From: Eledone cirrhosa
Lineage: Eukaryota
NCBI GenBank assembly: GCA_964016885.1
Contig: OZ024757.1
Span: forward strand, 43,338,001 to 43,402,000
Direction: 5' to 3'
Length of the DNA: 64,000 bases
Shown: positions 1-32,209 of the stretch, one piece after another
Numbering within the stretch: the first letter of the stretch is position 1
Layout: each line of letters begins with the position of its first letter
Made by a program: the position numbers and the translations under genes
The notes under the pieces: model-generated
What the model was told of the DNA's origin: nothing
What the model saw: only the letters and a program-made list of their open reading frames with translations
Databases searched by the model: none

Positions 1-3000
1 CATGCGCCAAGGCCGCCGTACCGTTGTGCGCATGCGCAAAGACCGCTGGCCCTTAGTGCGCATGCGCCATGGCCGCCGGACCTTACTGCGCATGCGCTAA
101 GGCCGCCGGACCTTACTGCGCATGCGCCAAGGCCACTGGACTGTAGTGCGCATGCCCCACGGCCACTGGACAGTACTGCGCATGCGTCAAGGCCACCGGA
201 ACGTAGTGCGCATGCGCCAAGACCGCCGTACCGTTGTGCGCATGCGCCAAGGCCGCTGGACCGTACTGCGCATGCGCAAAGGCCACCGGAACGTAGGGCG
301 CATGCGCCAAGGCCGCCAGAACGTAGTGCGCATGCGCCAAGGCCGCCGGACCGTAGTGCGCATGCGCCAAGGCTGCCAGACCGTAGTGCGCATGCGCCAA
401 AGCCGCCGGACCGTACTGCGCATGTGCCAAGGCCACCGGAACGTAGTGCGCATGCGGGAAGGTCGCCGGACCGTAGTGCGCATGCGCCAAGGCCGCCGAA
501 CCGCATGCGCACAAAGGTCCGGCGGCCTTGGCGCATGCGCAGTACGGTTCGGCGGCCTTGGCGCATGCGCACGACGGTCTGGCGGCATTGGCACATGCGC
601 ACTACGGTCCGACGGCCTTGGGGCATGCGCAGTAAGATCCGGCGGTCTTGGAGCATGCGCACTACGGTCTGGCGGCCTTGGCACATGCGCACTACTGTCC
701 GACGGCCTTGGGGCATGCGCAGTACGATCCGGCGGTCTTGGATCATGCGCAGTACCGTTGCGTGGCCTTGGCGCATGCGCACTACGGTCCAGCTGCTTTG
801 GCGCATGCGCAGTACGGTTCGGCGGCCTTAGCGCATGCGCACTACGGTCCGGAGGGCTTGGCGCATGCGCAGTATGGTCCGGCGACCTTGACGCAGGCGC
901 ACTACGGTTCGGCGGCTCTGGCGCATGCGCACTGCGGTCCGGCGGCCTTGGCGCATGCGCAGTACGGTCCGGCGGCCTTAGCGCATGCGCAGTTCGGTAC
1001 TGGGACCTTGACGCATGCGCAGTACAGTCAGTCGGTCTTGGCGCATGCGCACTACGGTCCGGCGGCCTTGGCGCATGCGCAGTACGGTTCGGCGGCTTTG
1101 GCGCATGCGCACTACGGTCCGGCGGCCTTGGCACATGCGCAGTACGGTCCGGCGGCCTTAACGCATGCGCAGTTCGGTACTGCGACCTTGACGCATGCGC
1201 AGTACAGTCAGGCGGCCTTGGCGCATGCGCAGTACGGTCCGGCGGCCTTAGCGGATGCGCAGTTCGATACTGCGACCTTGACGCATGCGCAGTACAGTCA
1301 GGTGGCCTTGGCGCATGCGCAGTACGGTCCGGCGGCCTTGAAAATGGTTAAACTGCATCATAAATTACTAAAATAACTCAAAATGGCTAAATATGGACTG
1401 TACTGCGCATGCGCCAAGGCCACCAGGACGTAGTGCGCATGCGCCAAGTCCATCGGACCGTAGTGCGCATGCGCCAAGTCTGCCAGACCGTAGTGCGCAT
1501 GCGCCAAAGCCACCGGACCGTACTGCGCATGTGCCAAGGCCACCGAAACGTAGTGCGCATGCGGCAAGGTCGCCGGACCGTAGTGCGCATGCGCCAAGAC
1601 CGCCGGACCGTAGTGCGCGTGCGCCAAGGCCGCCAGACCGTAGTGCGCATGCGCCAAGGTCGCCGGGCCGTACTGCGCATGCGCCAAGGCCGCCGGGCTG
1701 TAGTGCGCATGCCCCAATGCTGCTAGACCGTAGTGCGCATGCACCAAAGCCACCGGACCGTAGTGCGCATGCGCCAAGGCTGCCGGACCGTAGTGCGCAT
1801 GCACCAAGGCCGCCGGACCGTTGTGCGCATGCGCAAAGAACGATGGCCATCTTAGTGAGCATGCGCCAAGGCCGCCGGAACGTACTGCGCATGCGCTAAG
1901 GCCGCCGGACCTTACTGCGCATGCGCCAAGGCCACTGGACAGTACTGCGCATGCGTCAAGGCCACCAGAACGTAGTGCGCATGCGCCAAGGCCGCCGTAC
2001 CGTTGTGCGCATGCGCAAAGACCGCTGGCCCTTAGTGCGCATGCGCCATGGCCGCCGGACCTTACTGCGCATGCGCCAAGGCCACTGGACTGTAGTGCGC
2101 ATGCCCCAAGGCCACTGGACAGTACTGCGCATGCGTCAAGGCCACCGGAACGTAGTGCGCATGCGCCAAGGCCGCCGTACCGTTGTGCGCATGCGCCAAG
2201 GCCACTGGACCGTACTGCGCATGCGCAAAGGCCACCGGAACGTAGTGCGCATGCGCCAAGGCCGCCGGACCGTAGTGCGCATGCGCCAAGGCTGCCAGAC
2301 CGTAGTGCGCATGCTCCAAGACCGCCGGATCTTACTGCGCATGCCCCAAGGCCGTCGGACCGTAGTGCGCATGTGCCAAGGCCGCCAGACCGTAGTGCGC
2401 ATGCGCCAAGGCCGCCGTACCGTACTGCGCATGCGCCAAGGCCGCCGGACCTTTGTGCGCATGCGGTTCGGCGGCCTTGGCGCATGCGCACTACGGTCCG
2501 GCGACCTTCCCGCATGCGCACTACGTTCCGGTGGCCTTGGCACATGCGCAGTACGGTCCGGCGGCTTTGGCGCATGCGCACTACGGTCTGGCAGCCTTGG
2601 CGCATGCGCACTACGGTCCGGCGGCCTTGGCGCATGCGCACTACGGTCCGGCGGCCTTGGCGCATGCGCACTACGTTCCGGTGGCCTTGGCGCATGCGCA
2701 GTACGCTCCAGTGGCCTTGGCGCATGCGCAGTAAGGTCCGGCGGCTTTGGCGCATGCGCACTATGGTCTGTCAGTCTTGGCGCATGCGCACTACGGTCCG
2801 GCGGCCTTGGCGCATGCGCACTACGTTCCGGCGGCCTTGGCGCATGCGCACTACGTTCCGGTGGCCTTTGCGCATGCGCAGTACGGTCCAGCGGCCTTGG
2901 CGCATGCGCACAACGGTACGGCGGCCTTGGCGCATGCGCACTACGTTCCGGTGGCCTTGACGCATGCGCAGTACTGTCCAGTGGCCTTGGGGCATGCGCA

Positions 3001-5814
3001 CTACAGTCCAGTGGCCTTGGCGCATGCGCAGTAAGGTCCGGCGGCCATGGCGCATGCGCACTAAGGGCCAGCGGTCTTTGCGCATGCGCACAACGGTACG
3101 GCGGCCTTGGCGCATGCGCACTACGTTCTGGTGGCCTTGACGCATGCGCAGTACTGTCCAGTGGCCTTGGCGCATGCGCAGTAAGGTCCGGCGGCCTTAG
3201 CGCATGCGCAGTACGTTCCGGCGGCCTTGGCGCATGCGCACTACGGTTCGGCGGCTCTGGCGCATGCGCACTACGGTCCGGCGGTCTTGGTGCATGCGCA
3301 GTACGGTACTGGGACCTTGATGCATGCGCAGTACAGTCAGGCGGCCTTGGCGCATGCGCACTACGGTCCGGCGGCCTTGGCGCATGCGCAGTACGGTCCG
3401 GCGGCCTTAGCGCATGCGCAGTTCGGTACTGCGACCTTGACGCATGCGCAGTACAGTCAGGCGGCCTTGGCACATGCGCACTACGGTCCGGCGGCCTTGG
3501 CGCATGCGCAGTATGGTCCGACGGCCTTGGCGCATGTGCACTATGTATCGGCGGCCTTGGCGCATGCGCACTACGGTTCGGCGGCTTTGGCGCATGCGCA
3601 CTACGATCCGGCGGCCTTGGCGCATGCGCACTACGGTCCGGCGGCCTTGGCGCATGCGCACTACGGTCATATGGCCTTGGCGCATGCGCACTACGGTACT
3701 GCGGCCTTGTCGCATGCGCAGTACGGTACTGCGGACTTGGCGCATGCGCAGTACGGTCAGGCGGCTTTGGCCCATGCGCACTACGGTCCGGCGGGCTTGG
3801 CGCATGCGCAGTATGGTCCGGCGACCTTGACGCATGCGCACTATGGTTCGGCGGCTCTGGCGCATGCGCACTGCGGTCCGGCGACCTTGGCGCATGCGCA
3901 ATACGGTCCGGCGGCCTTAGCGCATGCGCAGTTCGGTACTGGGACCTTGACGCATGCGCAGTACAGTCAGGCGACCTTGGCGCATGCGCACTACGGTCCG
4001 GCGGCCTTGGCGCATGCGCAGTACGGTCCGGCGGCCTTAACGCATGCGCAGTTCGGTACTGCGACCTTGACGCATGCGCAGTACAGTCAGGCGGCCTTGG
4101 CGCATGCGCATTACGGTCCGGCGGCCTTAGCGCATGCGCAGTTCAGTACTGCGACCTTGACGCATGCGCAGTACAGTCAGGTGGCCTTGGCGCATGCGCA
4201 CTACGGGCCCGCGTCTTTGGCGCATGCGCACTACGGCCCGGCGGCCTTGGCGCATGCGCAGTATGGTCCGGCGGCCTTGGCGCATGCGCACTACGGTTCG
4301 GCGGCTCTGGCGCATGCGCACTACGGTCCGGCGGTCTTGGTGCATGCGCAGTACGGTACTGGGACTTTGATGCATGCGCAGTACAGTCAGGCGGCCTTGG
4401 CGCATGCGCACTACGGTCCGGCGGGCTTGGCGCATGCGCAGTACGGTGCGCAAAGAACGATGGCCCTTAGTGCGCATGCGCCAAGCTAGCCGGAACGTAC
4501 TGCGCATGCGCTAAGGCCGCCGGACCTTACTGCGCATGCGCCAAGGCCACTGGACAGTACTGCGCATGCGTCAAGGCCACCGGAACGTAGTGCGCATGCG
4601 CCAAGGACGCCGTACCATTGTGCGCATGCGCAAAGACCGCTGGCCCTTAGTGCGCATGCGCCATGGCCGCCGGACCTTACTGCGCATGCGCTAAGGCCGC
4701 CGGGCCTTACTGCGCATGCGCCAAGGCCACTGGACTGTATTGCGCAGGCTCCAAGGCCAGCAGGACGTAGTGCGCATGCGCCAAGGCCATCGGACCGTAG
4801 TGCGCATGCGCCAAGTCTGCCAGACCGTAGTGCGCATGCGCCAAAGCCACCGGACCGTACTGCGCATGTGCCAAGGCCTCCGGAACGTAGTGCGCATGCG
4901 GTAAGGTCGCCGGACCGTAGTGCGCATGCGCCAAGACCGCCGGACCGTAGTGCGCGTGCGCCAAGGCCGCCAGACCGTAGTGCGCATGCGCCAAGGTCGC
5001 CGGGCCGTACTGCGCATGCGCCAAGGCCGCCGGGCTGTAGTGCGCATGCCCCAATGCTGCTAGACCGTAGTGCGCATGCACCAAAGCCGCCGGACCGTAG
5101 TGCGCATGCGCCAAGGCCGCCGGACCGTAGTGCGCATGCACCAAGGCCGCCGGACCGTTGTGCGCATGCGCAAAGAACGATGGCCCTTAGGGCGCATGCG
5201 CCAAGGCCGCCGGAACGTACTGCGCATGCGCTAAGGCTGCCGGAACTTACTGCGCATGCGCCAAGGCCACTGGACAGTACTGCGCATGCGCCAAGGCCAC
5301 CGGAACGTAGTGCGCATGCACCAAAGCCGCCGGACCGTAGTGCGCAGGCGCCAAGGCCGCCGGACCGTTGTGCGCATGCGCACTACGGTCTGGCAGCATT
5401 GGCGCATGCGCACTGCGGTCTGGCAGACTTGGCGCATGCGCACTACGGTCCGATGGCCTTGGCGCGTGCGCACTACGTTCTGGTGGCCTTGGCGCATGCA
5501 CAGTACGGTCCAGTGGCCTTGGCGCATGCGCACAACGGTCCGGCGGCCTTGGCGCATGCGCACTACGGTCCGGCAGCTTTGGTGCATGCGCACTACGGTC
5601 TGGCAGCATTGGCGCATGCGCACTACGGTCCGGCGGCCTTGGCGCATGCGCAGTACGGCCCGGCGGCCTTGGCGCATGCGCACTACGGTCCGGCGGCCTT
5701 GGCGCATGCGCACTACGGTCCGGCGGCGTTGGCGCATGCGCACTACGGTTCGGAGGCCTTGGCGCATGCGCACTACGGTCCGACGTCCTTGACGCATGTG
5801 CAGTACGGTCCGGA

Positions 5815-6080
5815 TGACTTTTTAGCCATTTTAAGCCTTTGTGTTGCCATATTTAGCCATTTTGAGTTATTTTAGTAATTTATGATGCAGTTTAACCATT
5901 TTAGAGCCATTTATAGTCATTTTAGACGTTTCAGTCGAGTTAGAGTCATTCTAGTCAATTATGATACGGTTTTAGCATTTTATTGTCACTTTAGTCATTT
6001 ATTATGCCGTCTTAGCCATTTTGTTGTAATTTCAGACATACATGATGACATTTCGGCCATGTTAGTCCTTTTTGATGACG
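5815..6080. repeat. AT-rich spacer of ~265 bp; near-identical copies at 8045-8312, 14328-14595 and 22048-22315, inverted fragment at 1341-1395
   Basis: The string gatgactttttagccattttaagcctt...gttagtcctttttgatgacg recurs almost verbatim. 1341-1395 is the reverse complement of ~5848-5902. Confidence 0.93.
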
Positions 6081-9000
6081 TGCCCATGCGCCAAGACCGC
6101 CAGACCGTACTGCGCACGCGCCGAGACGGCCTGATCGTAGTGCGCATGCGCCAAAGCCGCCTAACCGTAGTGCGCATGCGCCAAGGCCGCCGATACATAG
6201 TGCACATGCGCCAAGGCCGTCGGACCATACTGCGCATGCGCCAAGGGCGCCGGACAGTTGTGCGCATGCACCAAGGCCGCCTGACTTACTGCGCATGCGT
6301 CAAGGTCGCAGTACCGAACTGCGCATGCGCTAAGGCCTCCGGACCGTACTGCGCATGCGCCAAGGCCACCTGACTGTACTGCGCATGCGTGAAGGTCGCA
6401 GTACCGAACTGCGCATGCGCTAAGGCCGCCGGACCGTACTGCGCATGCGCCAAGGCCGCCGGACCGTAGTGCGCATGCGCCAAGGCCGCCTGACTGTACT
6501 GCGCATGCATCAAGGTCCCAGTACCGTACTGCGCATGCACCAAGACCGCCGGACCGTAGTGCGCATGCGCCAGAGCCGCCGAACCGTAGTGCGCATGCGC
6601 CAAGGCCGCCGGACCATACTGCGCATGCGCCAAGGCCGCCGGGCCGTAGTGCGAATCCTCCAAAGACGCGGGCCCGTAGTGCGCATGCGCCAAGGCCACC
6701 TGACTGTACTGCGCATGCGTCAAGGTCGCAGTACTGAACTGCGCATGCGCTAAGGCCGCCGGACCGTACTGCGCATGCGCCAAGGCCGCCGGACCGCAGT
6801 GCGCATGCGCCAGAGCCGCCGAACCGTAGTGCGCCTGCGTCAAGGTCGCCGAACCATACTGCGCATGCGCCAAGCCCGCCGGACCGTAGTGCGCATGCGC
6901 CAAAGCAGCTGGACCGTAGTGCGCATGCGCCAAGGCCACGGGACGGTACTGCGCATGCTCCAAGACCGCCGGATCGTACTGCGCATGCCCCAAGGCCGTC
7001 GGACAGTAGTGCGCATGTGCCAAGGCCGCCAGACCGTAGTGCGCATGCTCCAAGACCGCCGGATCTTACTGCGCATGCCCCAAGGCCGTCGGACCGTAGT
7101 GCGCATGTGCCAAGGCCGCCAGACCGTAGTGCGCATGCGCCAAGGCCGCCGAACCGTACTGCGCATGCGCCAAGGCCGCCGGACCTTTGTGCGCATGCGG
7201 TTCGGCGGCCTTGGCGCATGCGCACTACGGTCCGGCGACCTTCCCGCATGCGCACTACGTTCCGGTGGCCTTTGCGCATGCGCAGTACGGTCCAGCGGCC
7301 TTGGCGCATGCGCACAACGGTACGGCGGCCTTGGCGCATGCGCACTACGTTCCGGTGGCCTTGACGCATGCGCAGTACTGTCCAGTGGCCTTGGGGCATG
7401 CGCACTACAGTCCAGTGGCCTTAGCGCATGCGCAGTAAGGTCCGGCGGCCATGGCGCATGCGCACTAAGGGTCAGCGGTCTTTTCGCATGCGCACAACGG
7501 TCCGGCGGCCTTGGCGCATGCACACTACGGCCCGGCGGCCTTGGCGCCTGCGCACTACGGTCCGGCGGCTTTGGTTCATGCGCACTACGGTCTGGCAGCA
7601 TTGGCGCATGCGCACTACGGTCTGGCAGACTTGGCGCATGCGCACTACGGTCCGATGGCCTTGGCGCGTGCGCACTACGTTCTGGTGGCCTTGGCGCATG
7701 CACAGTACGGTCCAGTGGCCTTGGCGCATGCGCACAACGGTCCGGCGGCCTTGGCGCATGCGCACTACGGTCCGGCAGCTTTGGTGCATGCGCACTACGG
7801 TCTGGCAGCATTGGCGCATGCGCACTACGGTCCGGCGGCCTTGGCGCATGCGCAGTACGGCCCGGCGGCCTTGGCGCATGTGCACTACGGTCTGGCGGCA
7901 TTGGCGCATGCGCACTACGGTCCGGCGGCCTTGGCGCATGCGCACTACGGTCCGGCGGCGTTGGCGCATGCGCACTACGGTTCGGAGGCCTTGGCGCATG
8001 CGCACTACGGTCCGACGTCCTTGACGCATGTGCAGTACGGTCCGGATGACTTTTTAGCCATTTTAAGCCTTTGTGTTGCCATATTTAGCCATTTTGAGTT
8101 ATTTTAGTAATTTATGATGCAGTTTAACCATTTTAGAGCCATTTATAGTTATTTTAGACGTTTCAGTCGTGTTAGAGTCATTCTAGTCAATTATGATACG
8201 GTTTTAGCATTTTATTGTCACTTTAGTCATTTATTATGCCGTCTTAGCCATTTTGTTGTAATTTCAGACATACATGATGACATTTCGGCCATGTTAGTCC
8301 TTTTTGATGACGTGCCCATGCGCCAAGACCGCCAGACCGTACTGCGCACGCGCCGAGACGGCCTGATCGTAGTGCGCATGCGCCAAAGCCGCCTAACCGT
8401 AGTGCGCATGCGCCAAGGCCGCCGATACATAGTGCACATGCGCCAAGGCCGTCGGACCATACTGCGCATGCACCAAGGGCGCCGGACCGTTGTGCGCATG
8501 CGCCAAGGCCACCTGACTGTACTGCGCATGCGTCAAGGTCGCAGTACCGAACTGCGCATGCGCTAAGGCCGCCGGACCGTAGTGCGCATGCACCAAGGCC
8601 GCCGGACCGTTGTGCCCATGCGCAAAGAACGATGGCCCTTAGTGCGCATGCGCCAAGGCCGTCGGAACGTACTGCGCATGCGCTAAGGCCGCCGGACCTT
8701 ACTGCGCATGCGCCAAGGCCACTGGACAGTACTGCGCATGCGCCAAGGCCACCGGAACGTAGTGCGCATGCGCCAAGGCCGCCGTACCGTTGTGCGCATG
8801 CGCCAAGGCCGCTGGACCGTACTGCGCATGCGCAAAGGCCACCGGAACGTAGTGCGCATGCGCCAAGGCCGCCGGAACGTAGTGCGCATGCGCGAAGGCC
8901 GCCGGACCGTAGTGCGCATGCGCCAAAACTGACAGACCATAGTGCGCATGCGCCAAAGCCGCCGGACCTTACTGCGCATGCGCCAAGGCCACTGGAGCGT

Positions 9001-12000
9001 ACTGCGCATGCGCCAAGGCCACCGTAACGTAGTACGCATGCGCCAAGGCCGCCGGACCGTAGTGCGCATGCGCCAATGCTGCCAGACCGTAGTGCGCATG
9101 CACCAAAGCCGCCGGACCGTAGTGCGCAGGCGCCAAGGCCGCCGGGCCGTAGTGTGCATGCGCCAAGGCCGCCGGACCGTTGTGCGCATGCGCAAAGACC
9201 GCTGACCCTTAGTGCGCATGCGCCATGGCCGCCGGACCTTACTGCGCATGCGCTAAGGCCGCCGGACCTCACTGCGCATGCGCCAAGGCCACTGGACTGT
9301 ACTGCGCATGCGCCAAGGCCACCAGGACGTAGTGCGCATGCGCCAAGGCCATCGGACCGTAGTGCGCATGCGCCAAGTCTGCCAAACCGTAGTGCGCATG
9401 CGCCAAAGCCACCGGACCGTACTGCGCATGTGCCAAGGCCACCGGAACGTAGTGCGCATGCGGCAAGGCCGCCGGACCGTAGTGCGCATGAGCCAAGACC
9501 GCCGGACCGTAGTGCGCGTGCGCCAAGGCCGCCAGACCGTAGTGCGCATGCGCCAAGGTCGCCGGGCCGTACTGCGCATGCGCCAAGGCCGCCGGGCTGT
9601 AGTGCGCATGCTCCAATGCTGCTAGACCGTAGTGCGCATGCACCAAAGCCGCCGGACCGTAGTGCGCATGCGCCAAGGCCGCCGGACCGTAGTGCGCATG
9701 CACCAAGGCTGCCGGACCGTTGTGCGCATGCGAAAAGAACGATGGCCCTTAGTGCGCATGCGCCAAGGCCGCCGGAACGTACTGCGCATGCGCTAAGGCC
9801 GCCGGACCTTACTGCGCATGCGCCAAGGCCACTGGACAGTACTGCGCATGCGTCAAGGCCACCGGAACGTAGCGCGCATGCGCCAAGGCCGCCGTACCAT
9901 TGTGCGCATGCGCAAAGACCGCTGGCCCTTAGTGCGCATGCGCCATGGCCGCCGGACCTTACTGCGCATGCGCTAAGGCCGCCGGGCCTTACTGCGCATG
10001 CGCCAAGGCCACTGGACTGTACTGCGCAGGCGCCAAGGCCAGCAGGACGTAGTGCGCATGCGCCAAGGCCATCGGACCGTAGTGCGCATGCGCCAAGTCT
10101 GCCAGACCGTAGTGCGCATGCGCCAAAGCCACCGGACCGTACTGCGCATGTGCCAAGGCCACCGGAACGTAGTGCGCATGCGGCAAGGTCGCCGGACCGT
10201 AGTGCGCATGCGCCAAGACCGCCGGACCGTAGTGCGCGTGCGCCAAGGCCGCCAGACCGTAGTGCGCATGCGCCAAGGTCGCTGGGCCGTACTGCGCATG
10301 CGCCAAGGCCGCCGGGCTGTAGTGCGCATGCCCCAATGCCGCTAGACCGTAGTGCGCATGCACCAAAGCCGCCGGACCGTAGTGCGCATGCGCCAAGGCC
10401 GCCGGACCGTAGTGCGCATGCACCAAGGCCGCCGGACCGTTGTGCGCATGCGCAAAGAACGATGGCCCTTAGTGCGCATGCGCCAAGGCCGCCGGAACGT
10501 ACTGCGCATGCGCTAAGGCTGCCGGACCTTACTGCGCATGCGCCAAGGCCACTGGACAGTACTGCGCATGCGCCAAGGCCACCGGAACGTAGTGCGCATG
10601 CACCAAAGCCGCCGGACCGTAGTGCGCAGGCGCCAAGGCCGCCGGACCGTTGTGCGCATGCGCAATGACCGCTGGCCCTTAGTGCGCATGCGCCATGGCC
10701 GCCGGACCTTACTGCGCATGCGATAAGGCCACTGGACCGTAGTGCGCATGCGCTAAGGCTGCCGGACCTTACTGCGCATGCGCCAAGGCCACTGGACAGT
10801 ACTGCGCATGCGCCAAGGCCACCGGAACGTAGTGCGCATGCGCCAAGGCCGCCGGAACGTAGTGCGCATGCGGGAAGGTCGCCGGACAGTAGTGCGCATG
10901 CGCCGAGGCCACCGAACCGCATGCGCACAAAGATCCGGCGGCCTTGGCGCATGCGCAGTACGGTTCGGCGGCCTTGGCGCATGCGCACTACGGTTCGGCG
11001 GCTTTGGCGCATGCGCACTACGATCCGGCGGCCTTGGCGCATGCGCACTACGGTCCGGCAGCCTTGGCGCATGCGCACTACGGTCATGTGGCCTTGGCGC
11101 ATGCGCACTACGGTACTGCGGCCTTGTCGCATGCGCACTACGGTCCGGTGGCTTTGGCGCATGCGCACTACGGTCCGGCGACCTTGGCGCATGTGCAGTA
11201 CGGTCCGGTGGCCTTGGCGCATGCGCACTACGGTCCAGCTGCTTTGGCGCATGCGCAGTACGGTTCGGCGGCCTTAGCGCATGCGCACTACGGTCCGGCG
11301 GGCTTGGCGCATGCGCAGTATGGTCCGGCGACCTTGACGCATGCGCACTACGGTTCGGCGGCTCTGGCGCATGCGCACTGCGGTCCGGCGGCCTTGGCGC
11401 ATGCGCAGTACGGTCCGGCGGCCTTAGCGCATGCGCAGTTCGGTACTGGGACCTTGACGCATGCGCAGTACAGTCAGGCGGCCTTGGCGCATGCGCACTA
11501 CGGTCCGGCGGCCTTGGCGCATGCGCACTACGGTCCGGCGGCCTTGGCACATGCGCAGTACGGTCCGGCGTCCTTAACGCATGCGCAGTTCGGTACTGCG
11601 ACCTTGACGCATGCGCAGTACAGTCAGGCGGCCTTGGCGCATGCGCAGTACGGTCCAGCGGCCTTAGCGCATGCGCAGTTCGGTACTGCGACCTTGACGC
11701 ATGCGCAGTACAGTGAGGTGGCCTTGGCGCATGCGCACTACGGTCCGGCGTCTTTGGCGCATGCGCAGTATGGTCCGGCGGCCTTAGCGCATGCGCACTA
11801 CGGTTCGGCGGCTCTGGCGCATGCGCACTACGGTCCGGCGGTCTTGGTGCATGCGCAGTACGGTACTGGGACCTTGATGCATGCGCAGTACAGTCAGGCG
11901 GCCTTGGCGCATGCGTACTACGGTCCGGCGGCCTTGGCACATGCGCACTACAGTCCGGCGGCCTTAACGCCTGCGCAGTTCGGTACTGCGACCTTGACGC

Positions 12001-17789: not shown

Positions 17790-18905
17790 TCTAATTTATG
17801 ATGACGTTTCATCCATTTTATTCATTTCTGAAGACCTTTTAGACATTTTATTGTCTTTTTAGTCATTATGATGCCATTTCATCCATTTTAGTGCAATTGT
17901 AGCCATTTACGATGTCGTTTTACCCATTTTAGTGATTTATAATGACGTTTAAGCAATTTTATGTAGTTTTAGTCATTTACGATATCGTTTTAGCCATTTT
18001 AGTCATTGATGATGACGTTTTAGTCATTTATGATGCAGTTTTAGCCATTCTGTTGTAATATGGCAACATAAATGATTAAATGGCTCTAAAATGGCTAAAA
18101 CGGACTCATATTTGACTAAAATGACTCTAAAACGACTAAAATGACTCGTAAATGAGTAAAACGGCATAAAAATTGACTAATATGACACTAAAATGGCTAA
18201 ATCAGCATCATAATTCACTAAAATGACTCTAAAACGAGTAAAATGACAAAAATGACTCGTAAATGAGTAAAACGGTATCATAAATGACTAAAATAACTCT
18301 AGAAAGGCTACAACAGCATCATAAATGATTAAAATGACTCTAAAACGACTAAAACGTCTAAAATGACAAAAATGGCTCTAATATAGCTTAAACTGCATCA
18401 TAAATGACTAAAACGACTAAAATGACTCCGAAATGGCTAAAAATGACATTATAAATGACTAAAATGACGAAATTGGCTAAAACGTCATGATAAATGACTT
18501 AAATGTCTTAACCGTCATCATAAATGGCTAAAAGGACATCGTAAATGAATAAAATTACACTAAAATTGCTTAAACGTCATCATAATGACTGAAACGGCTA
18601 AAACGACATCGTAAATGGCTAAAATGACACTAAAGTGGCTAAAACGGACTGTTAAATTGCTAAATTGTCTCTAAAATGGCTAAAACGTCTTCATAAATAA
18701 ATAAAATGGCTAAAACGTCATCATAAATGACTACAACGTCATCATAAACGACTAAAATGGCAAAAACGACATCGTATATTACTAAAATTACACTAAATTG
18801 ATTGAAATGGAATCATGATAACTAAAAAGACAATATAATGTCTAAAACCTCTTCATAAATGAATAAAATGACTAAATAGGACTGTTAAATGACTAAAATG
18901 ACTAA
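17790..18905. repeat. AT-rich satellite block (10-bp subunits TTTTAGYCAT, ~30-bp unit) with an internal strand flip at ~18060
   Basis: Repeated ttttagtcat/ttttagccat/ttatgatgacg. Switches to the A-rich strand at ctgttgtaatatggcaaca. Nearly identical to 22400-23517. Confidence 0.92.
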
Positions 18906-21900
18906 ACGACCGTACTGCGCATGCGCCAAGGCCGCCGGACCGTACTGCGCATGCGCCAAGGACGCCGGACCGTAGTGCGCATGCGCCAAAGCCACCGGAC
19001 TGTAGTGCGCATGCGCCATGGTCGCATGACCGTAGTGCGCATGCGCCAAGGCCTCCCTACCGTAGTGCGCATGGGCCAAAGCCGCCTGACCGTACTGCGC
19101 ATGCGCCATGTCCGCAGTACCGTACTGCGCATGCGACAAGGCCGCAGTACCGTAGTGCGCATGCGCCAAGGCCACATGACCGTAGTGCGCATGCGCCAAG
19201 GCCGCTGGACCGTAGTGTGCATGCGCCAAGGCCGCCGGATCGTAGTGCGCATGCGCCAAAGCCGCCGAACCGTAGTGCGCATGCGCCAAGGCCGCCGATA
19301 CATAGTGCACATGCGCAAAGTCCGTCGGACCATACTGCGCATGCGCCAAGACCGCCAGACCGTACTGCGCACGCGCCGAGACGGCCGGACCGTAGTGCGC
19401 ATGCGCCAGAGCCGCCGAACCGTAGTGCGCATGCGCCAAGGCCGCTGGACTATACTGCGCATGCGCCAAGGCGGCCGGACCGTACTGCGCATGCGCCAAG
19501 GCCGCCTGACTGTACTGCGCATGCGTCAAGGTCGCAGTACCGAACTGTGCATGCGCTAGGGCCGCCGGACCGTACTGCGCATGCGCCAAGGCCGCCGGAC
19601 CGTAGTGCGCATGTGCCAAGGCCGCCTGACTGTACTGCGCATGCGCCAAAGACGCCGAACCATCGTGCCCATGCGCCAAGACCGCCAGACCGTACTGCGC
19701 ACGCTCCTAGACGACCTATTCGTACTGCGCATGCCCCAGGGCCGTCGGACCGTAGTGCGCATGCGCCAAAGCCGTCGAACCATAGTGCGCATGTGCCATG
19801 GCCGCATGACCGTAGTGCGCATGCGCCAAGGCCGCCCGACCGTAGTGCGCATGGGCCAAAGCCGCCCGACCGTACTGCGCATGAGCCAAGTCCGCAGTAC
19901 CGTACTGCGCATGCGACAAGGCCGCAGTACCGTACTGCGCATGCGAAACGGCCGCAGTACCCTAGTGCGCATGCGCCAAGGCCATCGGACCGTAGTGCGC
20001 ATGAGTCAAGGCCGCCGGATGGTAGTGCGCATGCGCCAAGGCCACCGGACCGTACTGCGCATGTGCCAAGGCCGCCGGACCGTAGTGCGCATGCGCCAAA
20101 GCCGCTGAACCGTGGTGCGCATGCGCCCAGGCCGCCGGACCGTAGTGCGCATGCGCCAGGGCCGCCTGACTGTACTGCGCATGCGTCAAGGTCCCAGTAC
20201 CGATCTGCGCATGCGCTAAGGCATCCGGACCGTAGTGCGCATGCGCCAAGGCGGCCGGACCGTAGTGCGCATGCGCCAAGGCCGCCGGATCATACTGCGC
20301 ATGCGCGAAGACTGCCGGACCGTAGTGCGCATGCGCCAAGGCCGCCTGACTGTACTGCGCATGCGTCAACGTCGCAGTACCGAACTGCGCATGCGCCAAG
20401 GCCGCCGGACCGTACTGCGCATGCGCCAAGGCCGCCGGACCGTAGTGCGCATGCGCCAAGTCCGCCTGACTGTACTGCGCATGCATCAAGGTCCCAGTAG
20501 CGTACTGCGCATGCGCCAAGGCCGCCGGACCGTAGTGCGCATGCGCCAGAGCCGCTGAACCGTAGTGCGCATGCGCCAAGGCCACCGGACCATAATGCGC
20601 ATGCGCCAAGGCCGCCGGACCGTAGTGCGCATGCGCCAAGGCCGCCTGACTGTACTGCGCATGCGTCAAGGTCGCAGTACCGAACTGCGCATGCGCCAAG
20701 GCCGCCGGACCGTACTGCGCATGCGCCAAGGCCGCCGGACCGTAGTGCGCATGCGCCAAGGCCGCCTGACTGTACTGCGCATGCATCAAGGTCCCAGTAG
20801 CGTACTGCGCATGCGCCAAGGCCGCCGGACCGTAGTGCGCATGCGCCAGAGCCGCTGAACCGTAGTGCGCATGCGCCAAGGCCACCGGACCATACTGCGC
20901 ATGCGCCAAGGCCGCCGGACCGTAGTGCGCATGCGCCAAGGCCGCCTGACTGTACTGCGCATGCGTCAAGGTCGCAGTACCTAACTGCGCATGCGCTAAG
21001 GCCGCCGGACCGTACTGCGCATGCGCCAAGGCCGCCTGACTGTACTGCGCATGCGTCAAGGTCGTAGTACCGAACTGCGCATGCGCTAGGGCCGCCGGAC
21101 CGTACTGCGCATGCGCCAAGGCCGCCGGACCGTAGTGCGCATGCGCCAAGGCCGCGTGACTGTACTGCGCATGCATCAAGGTCCCAGTACCGTACTGCGC
21201 ATGCACCAAGGCCGCCGGACCGTAGGGCACATGCGCCAGAGCCTTAGCGCATGCGCAGTAAGGTCCGGCGGCCTTGGCGCATGAGCACTAAGGGCCAGCG
21301 GTCTTTGCGCATGCGCACAACGGTCCGGCGGCCTTGGCGCATGCGCACTACGGTCCGGCGGCCTTGGCGCATGCGCACTACGGTCCGACGGCCATGGCGC
21401 ATGTGAACTATGTATCGGCGGCCTTGGCGCATGCGCACTACGGTCCGGCGGCCTTGGCGCATGAGCAGTACGGCCCGGCGACCTTGGCGCATGCGCACTA
21501 CGGTCTAGCGGCCTTGGCGCACGCGCACTACGGTCCGGCGGTCTTGGCGCATGCGCACTACGGTCCGGCGGTCTTGGCGCATGCGCACTACGGTCCGGCG
21601 ACCTTGCCGCATGCGCACTACGTTCCGGTGGCCTTGGCACATGCGCAGTACGGCCCGGTGGCTTTAGCGCATGCGCACTACGGTCTGGCAGACTTGGCGC
21701 ATGCGCACTACGGTCCGATGGCCTTGGCGCATGCGCACTACTTTCTGGTGGCCTTGGCGCATGCGCAGTACGGTCCAGTGGCCTTGGCGCATGCGCACAA
21801 CGGTCCGGCGGCCTTGGCGCATGCGCACTACGGTCCGGCGGCTTTTGTGCATGCGCACTACGGTCTGGCAGCATTGGCGCATGCGCACTACGGTCCGGCG

Positions 21901-22047
21901 GCCTTGGCGCATGCGCAGTACGGCCCGGCGGCCTTGGCTCATGCGCACTACGGTCCGGCGGCCTTGGCGCATGCGCACTACGGTTCGGAGGCCTTGGCGC
22001 ATGCGCACTACGGTCCGACGTCCTTGACGCATGTGCAGTACGGTCCG

Positions 22048-25000
22048 GATGACTTTTTAGCCATTTTAAGCCTTTATGTTGCCATATTTAGCCATTTTTG
22101 AGTCATTTTAGTAATTTATGATTAAGTTTAACCATTTTAGAGCCATTTATAGTCATTTTAGACGTTTCAGTCGTGTTAGAGTCATTCTAGTCAATTATGA
22201 TACGGTTTTAGCATTTTATTGTCACTTTAGTCATTTATTATGCCGTCTTAGCCATTTTGTTGTAATTTCAGTCATACATGATGACATTTCGGCCATGTTA
22301 GTCCTTTGTGATGACGTTTAACAATTTTAGTCATTCATAATGACGTTTTATTCATTTTAGTCACTTATGATGTCATTTTAGCCCTTTTAGTGTTATTTTA
22401 GTAATTTATGATGACGTTTCATCCATTTTATTCATTTCTGAAGACCTTTTAGACATTTTATTGTCTTTTTAGTCATTATGATGCCATTTCATCCATTTTA
22501 GTGCAATTGTAGCCATTTACGATGTCGTTTTACCCATTTTAGTGATTTATAATGACGTTTAAGCAATTTTATGTAGTTTTAGTCATTTACGATATCGTTT
22601 TAGCCATTTTAGTCATTGAGGATGACGTTTTAGTCATTTATGATGCAGTTTTAGCCATTCTGTTGTAATATGGCAACATAAATGATTAAATGGCTCTAAA
22701 ATGGCTAAAACGGACTCATATTTGACTAAAATGACTCTAAAACGACTAAAATGACTCGTAAATGAGTAAAACGGCATAAAAATTGACTAATATGACACTA
22801 AAATGGCTAAATCAGCATCATAATTCACTAAAATGACTCTAAAACGAGTAAAATGACAAAAATGACTCGTAAATGAGTAAAACGGTATCATAAATGACTA
22901 AAATAACTCTAGAAAGGCTACAACAGCATCATAAATGATTAAAATGACTCTAAAACGACTAAAACGTCTAAAATGACAAAAATGGCTCTAATATAGCTTA
23001 AACTGCATCATAAATGACTAAAACGACTAAAATGACTCCGAAATGGCTAAAAATGACATTATAAATGACTAAAATGACGAAAGTGGCTAAAACGTCATGA
23101 TAAATGACTTAAATGTCTTAACCGTCATCATAAATGGCTAAAAGGACATCGTAAATGAATAAAATTACACTAAAATTGCTTAAACGTCATCATAATGACT
23201 GAAACGGCTAAAACGACATCGTAAATGGCTAAAATGACACTAAAGTGGCTAAAACGGACTGTTAAATTGCTAAATTGTCTCTAAAATGGCTAAAACGTCT
23301 TCATAAATAAATAAAATGGCTAAAACGTCATCATAAATGACTACAACGTCATCATAAACGACTAAAATGGCAAAAACGACATCGTATATTACTAAAATTA
23401 CACTAAATTGATTGAAATGGCATCATGATAACTAAAAAGACAATATAATGTCTAAAACGTCTTCATAAATGAATAAAATGACTAAATAGGACTGTTAAAT
23501 GACTAAAATGACTAAACGACCGTACTGCGCATGCGCCAAGGCCGCCGGACCGTACTGCGAATGCGCCAAGGCCGCCGGACCGTAGTGCGCATGCGCCAAG
23601 GCCACCGAACCGTACTGCGCATGAGCCAAAGCCGCCGAACCGTAGTGCGCATGCGCCAAGGCCGCCGAACCGTACTGCGCATGCGCCAAGGCCGCCGCAC
23701 CGTACTGCGCATGCGCCAAGACCGCCGGATCGTACTGCGCATGCAATTATGATACGGTTTAAGCATTTTATTGTCACTTTAGTCATTTATTATGCCGTGT
23801 TAGCCATTTTGTTGTAATTTCAGTCATTTATGATGACATTTCGGCTATTTTAGTCCTTTTTGATGACGTTTAACAATTTTAGTCATTCATAATGACGTTT
23901 TATCCATTTTAGTCACTTATGATGCCATTTTAGCCCTTTTAGTGTCATTTTAGTAATTTATGATGACGTTTTATCCATTATATTCATTTCTGAAGACATT
24001 TTAGACATTTTATTGTCTTTTTAGTCATTATGATGCCATTTCAGCCATTTTAGTGCAATTGTAGCCATTTGCGATGTCGTTTTACCCATTTTAGTGATAT
24101 ATAATGACGTTTAAGCAATTTTTTGTAGTTTTAGTTATTTACGATATCGTTTTAGCCATTTTAGTCATTGATGATGACGTTTTAGTCATTTATGATGCAG
24201 TTTTAGCCATTCTGTTGTAATATGGCAACATAAATGATTAAATGGCTCTAAAATGGCTAAAACAGCATCATATTTGACTAAAATGACTCTAAAACGACTA
24301 AAATGACTCGTAAATGAGTAAAACGGCATAAAAATTGACTAAAATGACACTAAAATGGCTAAAACAGCATCATAATTGACTAAAATGACTTTAAAACGAG
24401 TAAATTGACAAAAATGACTCGTAAATGAGTAAAACGGCATCATAAATGACTGAAATAACTCCAGAACGGCTACAACAGCATCATAAATGATTAAAATGAC
24501 TCTAAAATGACAAAAATGGCTCTATTATAGCTTAAACTGCATCTAAAATGACTAAAACGACTAAAATGACTCCGAAATGGCTAAAAATGGCATCATAAAT
24601 GACTAAAATGACTAAAGTGGCTAAAACGTCATGATAAATGACTTAAATGTCTTAACCGTCATCATAAATGACTAAAATGGCTAAAAGGACATCGTAAATA
24701 AATAAAATTACACTAAAATTGCTTAAACGTCATCATAAACGACTAAAATTGCTAAAACGACATCGTAAATGGCTAAAATGACACCAAAAATGGCTAAAAC
24801 GGACTGTTAAATTGCTAAATTATCTCTAAAATGGCTAAAACGTCTTCATAAATAAATAAATAAAATGGCTAAAACGTCATCATAAATGACTACAACGTCA
24901 TCATAAACGACTAAAATGGCAAAAACGACATCGTAAATTACTAAAATTACACTAAATTGATTGAAATGGCATCATGATAACTAAAAAGATAATATAATGT

Positions 25001-25066
25001 CTAAAACGTCTTCATAAATGAATAAAATGAATAAATAGGACTGTTAAATGACTAAAATGGCTAAAC
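22048..25066. repeat. Two further AT-rich satellite blocks (22048-23517 and 23745-25066) separated by a short GC-satellite island
   Basis: Same sequence and same internal flip (~22670, ~24220) as 17790-18905. The second block is more diverged. Confidence 0.92.
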
Positions 25067-26105
25067 GACCGTACTGCGCATGCGCAAAGGCCGCCGGACC
25101 GTACTGCGCATGCGCCAAGGCCGCCGGACCGTAGTGCGCATGCGCCAAGGCCGTCAAACCGTACTGCGCCAAGGCCGCCGGACCGTACTGCGCATGCGCC
25201 AAGGCCGCCGGACCGTACTGAGCATGCGCCAAAGCCGCCGGACCATACTTCGCATGCGCCAAGGCCGCCGGACCGTAGTGTGCATGCGCCAAGGCCGCCG
25301 AACCGTACTGCGCATGCGCTAAGGCCGCTGGACCGTAGTGCGCATGCGCCAAGACCGCCGGACCGTACTGCGCCCGCTGGATAGTACTGCGCATGCGCCA
25401 AGGCCGCCGGACCTTGGCGCATGCGCAGTACGGTCCGGCGGCCTTGGCGCATGCGCACTACGGTCCGGCGGCCTTGGCGCATGCGCAGTACGGTTGTTTA
25501 ACTATTTTAGTCATTTAACAGTCCGTTTTAGCCATTCTATTCAATGATGAAGACGTTTTAGACATTTTATTGTCTTTTTAGTCATTATGATGCCATTTCA
25601 GTCATTTTAGTGTAATTTTAGTAATTTACGATGTCGTTTTAGCCATTTTAGTCATTTATGATGACATTTTAGCCATTCTGTTGTAATTTCAGTCGTTTAT
25701 GATGACGTTTTAGACATTTAAGTCCTTTTTGATGCGTTTTAGCCATTTTAATCATTTATGTTGCCATACTGCGCATGCGCCAAGGCCGCCGGACCGTAGT
25801 GCGCATGCGCCAAAGCCGCCGACCGTAGTGCGCATGCGCCAAGGCCGCCGGACCGTACTGCGCATGCGCCAAGGCCGCCGGACCGTAGTGCGCATGCACC
25901 AAGACGCCGGACCGTACTGTGCATGCGCCAAAGCCGCCGGACCGTAGTGCGCATGCACCAAGGCCGCCGGACCGTACTGTGCATGCGCCAAAACCGCCGA
26001 ACCGTAGTGCGCATGCGCCAAGGCCACCGGACCTGACTGCGCATGCGCCAAGGCCGCCGGACCGTACTTTGCATGCGCCAAGGCAGCCGGACCGTAGTGC
26101 GCATG

Positions 26106-27860
26106 CCATTTCAGTCATTTTAGTGTAATTTTAGTAATTTACGATGTCGTTTTAGCCAATTTAGTCATTTATGATTTCGTTTTAGCCATTCTATTCATTG
26201 ATGATGACGTTTTAGTCATTTATGATGCCGTTTTAGCCATTCTGTTGTAATTTCAGTCGTTTATGATGACGTTTTAGCCATTTTAATCATTTATGTTGCC
26301 ATATTTAGCCTTTTTGAGTCATTTTAGTCATTTATGATGCAGTTTAACCATTTTAAGTCCTTTTTGATGACGTTTTAGCCATTTTAGTCATTTATGATGA
26401 CGTTTAAGCAATTTTGTTGTAATTTCAGTCATTTATAATGACGTTTTAGCCATTTTAGAGTCTATTTAGCAATTTAACAGTCCTTTTTAGTCATTTTATT
26501 CATTTATGAAGATGTTTAACGTATTTTAGTGTCAATTTATCATTAATGATGCCGTTTTAGACATTTATGATGACGTTTTAGCTATTTTAGTCATTTATGA
26601 TGACGTTTTAGCCATCTTACCCTTTTTTGATGACGTTTTAGCCATTTTAGAGTCAATTTAGCAATTTAACAGTCCGTTTTAGCCATTTTATTCATTAATG
26701 AAGACGTTTTAGACATTTTATTGCCTTTTTAGTCATTTATGATGCGGTTTTAGCCATTTTAAAGTGATTTTAGTCGTTTTAGAGTCATTTTAGTCAATTA
26801 TGATGCCGTTTTAGCCATTTTAGTCATTTGAGATGCTGTTTTAGCCATTTTGTTGTAATTTCAGTCATTCATGATGAGGTTTTAGCCATTTTAGTGTCAA
26901 TATAGTCATTTACGATGTCGTTTTAGCCATTTTAGTCATTTATGGTGACGTTTAAGCAAATTTAGTATAATTTTATTCATTTACGATGTCGTTTTAGCCA
27001 TTTTAGTCATTTAAGCTATTTTAGTCATTTTTTATGACGTTCTAATCATTTATTTTAATGTTTTAGTCATTTCAGTCATTTATGATGCTGTTTTCACCAT
27101 AGTAATTTATGAATCCGTATTAGTCTTTATAGTATCATTTCCGCCATTTAAGTTTTCGTCATTTTAGAGCAATTTTATTTATTTAAGTTGTCGTTTCAGC
27201 CAATTGAGAGTCGTTTTAGTCATTTTTGTGTCAATTTCGCCATTTTGCAGTCATTTTAGTCATTCAAGGAGCCGTTTTAGAGATTTTATTCATTTAAGAG
27301 TCGTTTTAGTCACTCAATGAGCGTTCTAGCTATTTTAGGGTCGATTTAGCAATTTTACAATCGTTTTAGTTATTTTGGGAGACGTTTCAGCCATTTTAGA
27401 GTCATTTTAGCCATTTTACAGTCGTTTTAGTCATTTAAGGAGCCGTTTTAGCCATTTTAGTGTCATTTTACAGTCGTTTTAATAATGTTAGGGTCATTTT
27501 ATCATTTAAGATGTCATTTTAGCCCTGTTAGTGTCGTTTTAGCTATTTAAGAGTCATTTCAGTCATTTGCAGATCCGTTTTAGCAATTTTAGTGTTATTT
27601 TAGAAATCTAAGGTGTCATTTTAGCCATTTTACAGTCGTTTCAGTTATTTAAGGAGCCGTTTTAGCCATTTAAGTATCGACTTGCCCATGTTTCAGTCAT
27701 TTCAATAATTTAAGGTCGTTTAAAGGGTTGCTTTAGATATCTTCAGTTCTTTTATGCATTTTATTATGAGTTATTTTAGTCATTTTAAGTCTCGTTTTAG
27801 TAATTTAAAGAGTTGATGTAGCTAATTCAAGATTTGTTTTAGTCATTTAAAGAGTTTATC
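26106..27860. repeat. Terminal AT-rich satellite, progressively degenerate
   Basis: The ttttagycat periodicity persists but decays into unique AT-rich sequence at ~27.9 kb. Confidence 0.85.
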
Positions 27861-28318: not shown

Positions 28319-28356
<38 letters not shown>

Positions 28357-30702: not shown

Positions 30703-31308
30703 TTATTTGTTGTATAGTAATAAGGAACAAACAACAAAGAAAGCGCCACAGTAGAACTGAAGTGTAAGATGTGCTTTAAAGACTACAACAGCAGCTACAC
30801 AAGAGATGATGATAGAAAGTGATGACGCAAATGACTTCAAAACATTGTCAGCATATTTAAAAACAACTGCAATACTCAGTCCTGAAAATGCTTGGATGAA
30901 AAGTGAGAGTAATACGAGATTATCGTAGCCATAGAAAAATCCCTTTTCAAAAATTTGTGTTCTGTCTTTTGTATATATTCCAACCATACCAACAAGCATG
31001 CCAAAACTGGCCAGTTGTATGTTGCGTACCCAAACAGATTTCGGGGTGGATTTGAGGATTTTTTCAAAGTAGACACCTGCAAAACCTGAGAGAAATACGG
31101 AAATTATGACGGCTGTTAACCCGAGGAAGTTATTTTGTGTCTGTACAGTGACATGGTGGTGTGTCTGTTCTGTATCAAGGTTTAACTGTACAATTGAAAC
31201 TCCGGTAAATAACACTACAATGGCTAACCCTTGCAGGCGGGTGATTTCTTTGCCAAGTATGAATACAGCAAATATACAGGTAGTGAAGATTTTGAGCTGG
31301 TAGAGCAC
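30703..31308 (-). CDS. SLC35A2: Last visible coding exon of an SLC35A-family nucleotide-sugar (UDP-galactose-type) transporter
   Basis: Motifs VLYQLKIFTT, SGFAGVYFEKILK, SVWVRNIQL and KYADNVLKSFA. Acceptor tctcttttacAG at 31310-31309, phase 0. TAA at 30705-30703. The symbol means closest family resemblance, not proven orthology. Confidence 0.92.
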   Translation of the reverse strand: MLYQLKIFTTCIFAVFILGKEITRLQGLAIVVLFTGVSIVQLNLDTEQTHHHVTVQTQNNFLGLTAVIISVFLSGFAGVYFEKILKSTPKSVWVRNIQLASFGMLVGMVGIYTKDRTQIFEKGFFYGYDNLVLLSLFIQAFSGLSIAVVFKYADNVLKSFASSLSIIISCVAAVVVFKAHLTLQFYCGAFFVVCSLLLYNK

Positions 31309-31990: not shown

Positions 31991-32209
31991 TTAAGTTTCA
32001 TTTATAATGGTGGCATGTAGATTTATATTTACTTAAGTTTATGTTTCTACTTTTAACATCTTGTTGCGACTGACAGATAGTATCAACAATGGAAAGACCA
32101 ATGAAAACATTGTCTCTTTCCTTCATCCAATCTGATGAGTTCCACTTCACTCGATAAGGGAATGAGATCTTGTTAATTCAGATAAAAAAATATGTAATTC
32201 AGCGTTTAA

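What the first reader, a model, noticed from the sequence alone, without database searches (positions are those of the whole stretch)
1..27860. Composite fold-back satellite domain with an orientation grammar
Seen: two unrelated-looking satellites alternate. Call orientation A = ..GCGCCAAGG.. and B = its reverse complement. A->B switches occur directly, at or beside the palindromic core, with no spacer (~504, 2462, 5375, 7198, 10920, 17575, 21240, 25410). B->A switches almost always pass through an AT-rich block (1341, 5815, 8045, 14328, 17790, 22048, 25495; exception 4447). Each GC block between AT blocks is therefore a kilobase-scale inverted repeat, and the long AT blocks are themselves imperfect palindromes. 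Known: most satellites are head-to-tail, whereas Foldback-type transposons have inverted arms built of short tandem repeats. Inference: this is either an amplified nest of a fold-back element (AT arm + GC arm) or a centromeric/subtelomeric domain evolving by palindrome-mediated inversion. I do not recognise it as a described family.
Basis: partly seen in the sequence, partly recalled or inferred. Interest (0 to 1): 0.85.

Follow-up and report, generated by a model that had tools for sequence, protein, structure and literature searches.

The report
Alternating inverted satellites in an octopod
Two unrelated short DNA repeats alternate here in blocks that flip direction at a few reused junctions, a layout that the papers I found report only from flour beetles; this copy is likely from an octopus relative and was likely built by copying one inverted unit many times rather than by a transposon.

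Summary
The array is real. Window 1-27860 holds 690 copies of a 30-bp GC-rich monomer alternating with a degenerate AT-rich satellite, in a likely incirrate octopod. The listed switch coordinates hold, and two GC/AT junctions recur in reads from other samples. The 'grammar' is mostly inherited: 5 of 8 A->B switches are copies of one junction, 7 of 8 internal AT blocks match pieces of one cassette, and the bias is not significant on distinct junction types (p 0.05-0.18). Arms are not mirror images (0.81-0.86 identity at the seven long switches, background 0.83), two GC blocks never flip, and no inverted termini or target-site duplications were found, so it is not a Foldback element. It matches the 'macro-dyad symmetry' layout of Tribolium putative (peri)centromeric satellites, stated in 2026 to be documented only in that genus. 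Likely mechanism: a GC|AT boundary fragment folded back once in each satellite, and the inverted dimer was amplified and trimmed by deletions. The monomer core equals the NRF1 consensus (438 perfect sites) and is six-fold more conserved than the rest; binding and centromeric location are untested.

The parts
1..1340 (.). GC 30-mer array 1 (cut by window start): A 1-504, B 505-1340; switch is junction J1 in minus orientation
1341..1394 (-). 54-bp AT block, A-rich strand on +; its junction to the A array (K4, 1394) seen as a 63-read loose end in run X4
1395..5813 (.). GC array 2 with four subarrays: A, J1 (2462), B, direct B->A switch (4447), A, J2 (5378, perfect 14-bp core palindrome), B
5814..6080 (+). 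267-bp AT block, T-rich; 97% identical to the first 268 bp of the master cassette; junctions K1 and K6
6081..8045 (.). GC array 3: A, J1 (7196), B
8046..8312 (+). 267-bp AT block, copy of 5814-6080 (K1, K6)
8313..14327 (.). GC array 4, the longest: 87 A monomers, J1 in minus orientation (10921), 112 B monomers
14328..14594 (+). 267-bp AT block, third copy (K1, K6)
14595..17789 (.). GC array 5: 99 A monomers, J1 (17571; spanned by an X1 contig), 7 B monomers
17790..18906 (.). two-armed AT cassette, shortened left arm (K2), centre at 18066, K3 at right; 99.6% identical to the matching part of the master
18907..22048 (.). GC array 6: 76 A monomers, J3 (21241), 26 B monomers
22049..23516 (.). master two-armed AT cassette: K1, T-rich arm, centre at 22676, A-rich arm, K3; K1 seen in reads of X4, X5, X6
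23517..23744 (+). GC array 7: 7 monomers, A only (breaks the stated rule; ends in A->AT junction K8)
23745..25065 (.). two-armed AT cassette, more diverged copy (93-96% to master), centre at 24228
25066..25495 (.). GC array 8: 11 A monomers, J4 (25412), 2-3 B monomers
25496..25765 (+). 270-bp AT block, T-rich, entered by K3 in plus orientation; 83% to master arms
25766..26106 (+). GC array 9: 9-10 monomers called, A only; ends in A->AT junction K9
26107..27860 (+). terminal AT block, T-rich, old and unamplified (best non-self matches 76-83%), fading into ordinary DNA
30703..32800 (-). context only: two 3' exons of a nucleotide-sugar transporter gene (SLC35A-like) ending about 2.8 kb from the array; places the host among incirrate octopods

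Best explanation
This is a composite satellite array in which a 30-bp GC-rich repeat and an AT-rich repeat alternate and flip orientation at a few reused junctions, likely because one GC|AT boundary fragment was folded back once inside each satellite and the resulting inverted dimer was then amplified and trimmed. Step 1 (shown): the blocks can be read as the cycle A, B, T-rich AT arm, A-rich AT arm, which is a unit (B + T arm) followed by its reverse complement. Step 2 (inferred): the two turning points arose by template switching or fold-back priming at short inverted repeats; the GC monomer supplies a 10-bp palindrome every 30 bp. Step 3 (sequence shown, cause inferred): the commonest GC turning point J1 aligns as a core-centred palindrome lacking 7 bp at its tip, as expected if a perfect palindrome was stabilised by an asymmetric deletion. 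Step 4 (shown): junctions and arm segments were copied in both orientations (J1 five times, K1 and K3 four times each, K6 and the AT centre three times each) and monomer runs were reshuffled, so arms are no longer mirror images. Step 5 (inferred): the short AT spacers, the A-only blocks and the direct B->A switch are deletion products of the same cycle. The grammar is then mostly ancestry, and no selection on orientation is needed.
For: Junction copies in both orientations with 95-100% mean identity over 60 bp. Of 8 internal AT blocks, 7 match pieces of the 22049-23516 cassette at 93-99.6%. All turning points fold as short-looped hairpins, and J1 aligns to J2 with one 7-bp gap. Distinct junction types fall off with the number of skipped blocks, 9:5:1. 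Nearest-copy divergence rises from about 2 to 11 differences per 120 bp toward the edge. Reads of three other samples show K1 (177, 73, 50 reads), and a further B->AT junction absent from the window appears in X1, X4, X5 and X6, with the same polarity. ODIRA yields an inverted dimer with junctions at short interrupted inverted repeats and later secondary deletions (PMC10766183, passages); Tribolium satellites occur in circular extrachromosomal DNA (PMC12581902 passages; PMC13081366 section 10).
Against: The 9:5:1 fall-off is not significant (p=0.12), and any adjacency can be derived from the cycle by some deletion, so the model is hard to falsify in one window. The two arms of the AT cassette are only 71-73% alike, so the founding fold-back is old or joined two different parts of the AT array. 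Overlaps at the GC/AT junctions are 0-5 bp, close to chance. No intermediate was observed. The AT centre and K2 were not clearly bridged in any of the four runs laid, and K5 was not supported. Block order over kilobases was not checked on long reads.
Confidence: 0.6

Rival explanations
1. The macro-dyad layout is kept by selection because this is a (peri)centromeric or other structural heterochromatin satellite, with turning points or monomer cores acting as protein-binding or non-B-DNA sites, as proposed for Tribolium.
For: Same layout in a distant phylum (PMC13081366 sections 7 and 10). One-directional blocks are the short ones, as in T. madens. 15 of 17 GC/AT junction copies share one polarity. 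Core positions 1-9 deviate 2.0% against 12.3% elsewhere, and common variants are depleted there (4 common/18 rare against 38/22, p=0.0004). Loss of both TGCGC half-sites is rare (4 of 294 monomer types, 12.9 expected).
Against: On distinct junctions the polarity is not significant (7 of 9, p=0.18; 8 of 10 with the read-derived one, p=0.11). The array ends 2.8 kb from a gene. Genome-wide size and position are unknown. Recent differences are also lower in the core (24/2682 against 123/5960), so mutation or conversion bias explains part of the conservation; types with a changed left half-site carry fewer changes elsewhere too (1.9 against 2.7).
Confidence: 0.2
2. Each switch is an independent inversion made by recombination between palindromic cores on opposite strands, with AT blocks marking the other breakpoints.
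For: J2 is a perfect 14-bp core-centred palindrome and J1 derives from one; near-exact inverted segment matches are common.
Against: 5 of 8 A->B switches are one junction, and J3 and J4 are off the core. Core-to-core inversion would give direct B->A switches as often as A->B ones; there is 1 against 8.
Confidence: 0.08
3. An amplified nest of a Foldback-type transposon whose long terminal inverted repeats consist of an AT arm and a GC arm.
For: Foldback elements have long inverted repeats with internal tandem repeats, and Tetris supplied a satellite in D. virilis (PMC4079207, passages).
Against: No mirror arms; candidate termini at the AT centres match at best 18 of 30; no 8-10 bp duplication at 8 GC and 8 AT blocks tested, the only longer hit being in-phase monomer sequence; no middle domain; the array fades out without a terminus.
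Confidence: 0.07
4. The inversions or the block order are library or assembly chimeras.
For: Fold-back chimeras are a known risk in amplified or hairpin-prone DNA (own knowledge). Block order is untested, and X1 may be the source sample.
Against: Switches are not mirror-symmetric; the longest perfect palindrome is 16 bp and the longest exact repeat 462 bp; J1 recurs with point differences in both orientations and is spanned by an X1 contig of depth 90.6; K1 and K4 occur in other samples.
Confidence: 0.05

Closest known systems
Tribolium macro-dyad symmetries: TmSat1/TmSat2 of T. madens (PMC13081366; abstract, passages, sections 7 and 10 read) and TfSat01/TfSat03 of T. freemani (PMC12581902; passages read)
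   Same: Two intermingled satellites; arrays mostly of two inverted subarrays of unequal length; a few reused inversion sites and transition zones without foreign sequence; minor satellite as a two-armed cassette; one-directional arrays shorter.
   Different: Mollusc rather than beetle; monomers are 30 bp and about 67% GC, and a degenerate 9/21/30/41-bp AT family, against 225 and 704 bp units in T. madens; arrays 0.2-6 kb against a median of 14 kb; 5 of 8 internal AT blocks have one arm only; megabase extent, presence on all chromosomes and (peri)centromeric position are unknown here.
ODIRA inverted amplification (PMC10766183; passages read)
   Same: Unit plus its reverse complement, turning points at short interrupted inverted repeats, secondary deletions near the tips.
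   Different: Described for single-copy loci with a replication origin, giving triplications; here many rounds in satellite DNA, and no origin or intermediate shown.
Foldback-type transposons such as Tetris (PMC4079207; passages read)
   Same: Inverted arms built of tandem repeats, in two domains.
   Different: No conserved termini, no 8-10 bp target-site duplications, no middle domain, arms not copies of each other.
Human Yq12 DYZ1/DYZ2 (10.1101/2022.12.01.518658; passages read)
   Same: Alternating arrays of two satellites of different GC content, with more diverged units at the periphery.
   Different: Arrays of tens to thousands of kb, with DYZ2 inversions at the proximal and distal ends rather than in most arrays.
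NRF1/EWG/P3A2 binding site (PMC10810270; passages read)
   Same: The monomer core is the consensus GCGCATGCGC; 438 perfect copies in the array, none in the 36-kb flank.
   Different: Known as a promoter element; binding by the octopod homologue to this satellite is untested.

Membership tests
Tribolium-type macro-dyad satellite domain | two satellites in intermingled, alternating arrays | tested here: met
   9 GC arrays alternate with 9 AT blocks
Tribolium-type macro-dyad satellite domain | arrays mostly made of two (or an even number of) inverted subarrays | tested here: met
   of 8 complete GC arrays 5 have two, 1 has four, 2 have one; only 3 of 8 internal AT blocks have two
Tribolium-type macro-dyad satellite domain | few, highly conserved inversion sites without foreign sequence | tested here: met
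   J1 five copies, 97.7% mean identity; AT centre three copies, 100% over 60 bp; J1 spanned by an X1 contig
Tribolium-type macro-dyad satellite domain | conserved transition zones between the two satellites | tested here: met
   K1 98.9%, K3 94.7%, K6 100%; K1 in reads of three other samples from one study
Tribolium-type macro-dyad satellite domain | one-directional arrays shorter than two-armed ones | tested here: met
   GC 228 and 341 bp against 430-6015 bp; internal AT 54-270 bp against 1117-1468 bp; the terminal one-armed AT block is 1754 bp
Tribolium-type macro-dyad satellite domain | multi-megabase domains on many chromosomes, putatively (peri)centromeric, confirmed on raw long reads | not testable with these tools
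   no genome held; no run with long reads on record among the 6 listed
Foldback-type transposon | long terminal inverted repeats whose arms are copies of each other | tested here: not met
   mirror identity at background level; AT arms 71-73%; candidate termini at best 18 of 30
Foldback-type transposon | 8-10 bp target-site duplication | tested here: not met
   16 blocks tested: four 6-bp satellite motifs and one in-phase monomer match, otherwise none
Foldback-type transposon | middle domain between the arms | tested here: not met
   27,485 of 27,860 bp are GC monomers or AT blocks
Foldback-type transposon | dispersed discrete copies in the genome | not testable with these tools
   no genome held
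ODIRA-type inverted amplicon | turning points at short interrupted inverted repeats within about 100 bp | tested here: met
   all five GC turning points and the AT centre fold as short-looped hairpins; in an inverted satellite this is partly automatic
ODIRA-type inverted amplicon | replication origin in the unit and a hairpin-capped or circular intermediate | not testable with these tools
   needs eccDNA or origin mapping
NRF1/EWG/P3A2 site array | GCGCATGCGC consensus, conserved relative to its surroundings | tested here: met
   438 perfect sites; core six-fold more conserved
NRF1/EWG/P3A2 site array | bound by the factor in vivo | not testable with these tools
   needs ChIP or CUT&Tag; satellites are relatively more methylated in O. 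bimaculoides (PMC9476566, passages), which by my recollection would hinder NRF1 binding

The most novel reading that the evidence does not exclude
Macro-dyad satellite architecture has evolved convergently in cephalopods and beetles as a structural design of (peri)centromeric chromatin, and in this octopod the GC monomer is a dense array of NRF1/EWG-family binding sites (one per 30 bp, at least one half-site kept in 683 of 690 monomers), so that a conserved transcription factor serves as the satellite's organising protein.
Probability: 0.15. Interest if true: 0.8.

Novelty: new variant of a known kind. Interest (0 to 1): 0.5.

Why it matters
The T. madens paper of March 2026 states that satellite macro-dyad symmetries have been documented only in Tribolium, and leaves open whether they are functional or a by-product of how satellites spread. 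A mollusc case with 30-bp monomers makes that question testable across phyla. Because the monomers are short and variable, each junction can be traced, and this window points to inheritance from a few founding junctions. My three searches on octopus or cephalopod satellites listed no paper that by title or abstract describes one, so it is also a candidate probe for cephalopod heterochromatin. The conserved NRF1-like core gives a concrete protein to test.

Tried and rejected
Common origin of the two satellites by transition-biased decay: not supported (p=0.35 and 0.92). Literal fold-back symmetry at switches: rejected. Strong germ-line CpG decay: weak at most (CpG transitions 0.073 against 0.058 at other C/G; CpG o/e 1.16 in the array, 0.45 in the flank). 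Telomere adjacency: one 1-mismatch hit to a doubled telomere hexamer in 64 kb, within chance. RNA families: 0 hits in 17000-31000. Whole-genome mapping: no genome held. Expression: no RNA holder listed. Copy number: summed contig depth reaches about 199,000 over consensus-like monomers against 24.5 on an AT arm contig, but the tool states this is no copy number, so I did not use it. I first read the joint 17552->17724 as support for the whole 1341-1394 spacer; it is only A monomers continuing, so only K4 is supported. Earlier findings of this scan: nothing by place or sequence; three viral palindrome notes do not bear on this. Literature: ('macro-dyad') held 5 papers and listed 4: two Tribolium papers and two that carry the term only in the reference list. 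Searches gave the other comparisons. The library lacks most subscription papers, and I read no supplements.
Full report
Host and setting. No genome is held for this window. Two exons on the minus strand near 30703-32800 encode a nucleotide-sugar transporter (Pfam PF04142). The best hits of the last exon are Octopus sinensis (78%), an unnamed protein (74%) and Argonauta hians (74%); longer proteins gave at most 64%. The host is therefore likely an incirrate octopod but probably not one of those species. The gene ends about 2.8 kb from the array. The rest of the window holds microsatellites, reverse-transcriptase fragments and other repeats.

Anatomy. A sliding match to a window monomer (at least 21 of 30) finds 690 GC monomers, 407 in orientation A and 283 in B, with the same consensus TGCGCATGCGCCAAGGCCGCCGGACCGTAG and 89.8% mean identity. 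They form 9 arrays separated by 9 AT-rich blocks with periods of 9, 20-21, 30, 41 bp and longer. The GC monomer does not align to the terminal AT block better than shuffled monomers (p=0.92 and 0.35). GC monomers and AT blocks account for 27,485 of 27,860 bp. Nearest-copy divergence of five-monomer contexts is about 2 differences per 120 bp up to 18 kb, 4.5-5 at 18-24 kb and 11 beyond (only 5 contexts there). The terminal AT block has no match better than 76-83%. The array is younger inside and older at the edge.

Checking the grammar. All 8 A->B switches are direct, and 7 of 8 B->A switches pass through AT (Fisher p=0.0014). These are not independent events. A 40-bp search on both strands shows J1 five times (2462, 7196, 17571 on plus; 505, 10921 on minus), K1 four times, K3 four times (one plus, three minus), and K6 and the AT centre three times each; the other ten types are single. 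Copies are 95-100% identical on average over 60 bp. On distinct types the association gives p=0.048-0.14, the polarity 7 of 9 gives p=0.18, and the best symmetric cycle explains 9 of 15 types (p=0.12).

The arms are not fold-back copies. Mirror identity outward from the switches is 0.81-0.86 at seven of them and 0.90 at the eighth (3 pairs), against 0.826 for random A/B monomer pairs. Near-exact inverted matches are plentiful but centred elsewhere. The longest perfect palindrome is 16 bp; the longest exact direct and inverted repeats are 462 and 345 bp. Seven of the 8 internal AT blocks match pieces of the cassette 22049-23516 at 93-99.6%; the block at 25496 matches at 83%; the two arms of the cassette are 71-73% alike.

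Is it real? Of the 6 runs listed, three from one sample hold 27-34% of the 714 sampled words of 20900-28200, and three are RAD runs added by species label. I laid 4 of the 6 on 17530-18120. An X1 contig of depth 90.6 covers 17530-17607 and so spans J1; X1 may be the source sample. In X4, X5 and X6 (three samples, one study) many reads begin at 17592, 17652 and 17682 on plus, at the core hexamer that I recall as the SphI site, and run from B monomers into AT. The joint 17730->18080 (177, 73 and 50 reads) is K1: the listed other letters rebuild the last monomer before 22049 and the loose end matches the sequence after it. A 63-read loose end in X4 matches the AT side of K4. A further B->AT junction occurs in X1 (depth 126), X4, X5 and X6 and is absent from the window, so more such cassettes exist elsewhere. 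About 7 reads in X4 and 2 in X5 cover the J1 bin, none in X6. K2, K5 and the AT centre were not clearly bridged (the one X1 piece has 23 letters left of the centre). The tool showed only part of its rows (41 other-letter, 5 joint and 152 loose-end rows hidden). Block order over kilobases is untested.

Mechanism. Written as A, B, T-rich arm, A-rich arm, the array is a unit followed by its reverse complement, repeated. Distinct junction types number 9 for adjacent steps, 5 for one block skipped and 1 for two skipped. J2 is a perfect 14-bp core palindrome, and J1 aligns to it with one 7-bp gap at the tip. J3 and J4 lie elsewhere in the monomer. I infer two founding fold-backs by template switching, stabilising deletion at the tip, amplification in both orientations and later deletions. 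ODIRA gives the same geometry in yeast: an inverted dimer with junctions at short interrupted inverted repeats and secondary deletions (PMC10766183, passages). No intermediate is shown here, and overlaps at the GC/AT junctions are 0-5 bp.

The core. Positions 1-9 deviate from consensus at 2.0% against 12.3% for positions 10-29. Differences between nearest copies are 24/2682 against 123/5960, and common variants are depleted (4/18 against 38/22, p=0.0004). [quoted passage not shown] The array holds 438 perfect sites and the flank none. Both half-sites are lost in 7 of 690 monomers (15.1 expected) and 4 of 294 types (12.9 expected), an odds ratio of 0.2 that is below all 36 non-core control pairs and among the two lowest of 20 partners of the left half-site. 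Against this: types with a changed left half-site carry fewer other changes, monomer types are related by descent, the conservation is lopsided across the palindrome, and octopus satellites are relatively more methylated than other repeats (PMC9476566, passages). It is a lead, not a finding.

Comparison. [quoted passage not shown] Those authors state the pattern is documented only in Tribolium and allow that conservation may reflect how the arrays spread. A search for 'macro-dyad' held 5 papers and listed 4, the two non-Tribolium ones only citing the title. All five features testable in the window are met; genome-wide extent and position are not testable. Foldback membership fails on arms, termini, duplications and middle domain (PMC4079207, passages). 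Human Yq12 alternates two satellites but on a far larger scale (10.1101/2022.12.01.518658, passages). Supplements of the Tribolium papers, which hold the junction alignments, were not read and may bear on how close the match is.

Verdict. A real composite satellite with a Tribolium-like macro-dyad layout in a likely octopod: a new variant of a known kind. The grammar is best read as ancestry of a few junctions (0.6), with a functional reading open (0.2). Interest 0.5.

Noticed in passing
window 30703-32800, minus strand: Two exons of an SLC35A-like nucleotide-sugar transporter (PF04142) ending 2.8 kb from the satellite and transcribed toward it; only 78% identical to its best Octopus hit.
   Followed up: partly
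window 59785-60747: 216-nt inverted repeat, 99% complementary, 531 nt apart; looks like a young non-autonomous DNA transposon.
   Followed up: no
window 62861-64000: Inverted arms of at least 235 + 79 nt (99% and 95%), about 525 nt apart, cut by the window end.
   Followed up: no
window about 49150-50640: Near-identical tandem array of a unit of about 87 bp by eye, roughly 17 copies.
   Followed up: no
window 47300-49060: About 1.8 kb of GGT-type microsatellite with extreme G skew.
   Followed up: no
window 37629-38933 and 39730-40413 (minus), 35447-36367 (plus): Retroelement-like fragments: two with RVT_1 hits and one with a PHD-finger hit.
   Followed up: partly
run X1, X4, X5, X6 on window 17530-18120: A B->AT junction with five extra letters that is not in the window, so further cassettes lie outside it.
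   Followed up: partly
runs X4-X6: RAD reads start at the monomer core, so these libraries sample GC/AT junctions directly and could be used to count junction types across individuals.
   Followed up: no
window 8313-21240: Higher-order periods inside the GC arrays, with near-exact direct matches at shifts of 300, 390, 420 and 720 bp, that is 10, 13, 14 and 24 monomers.
   Followed up: no
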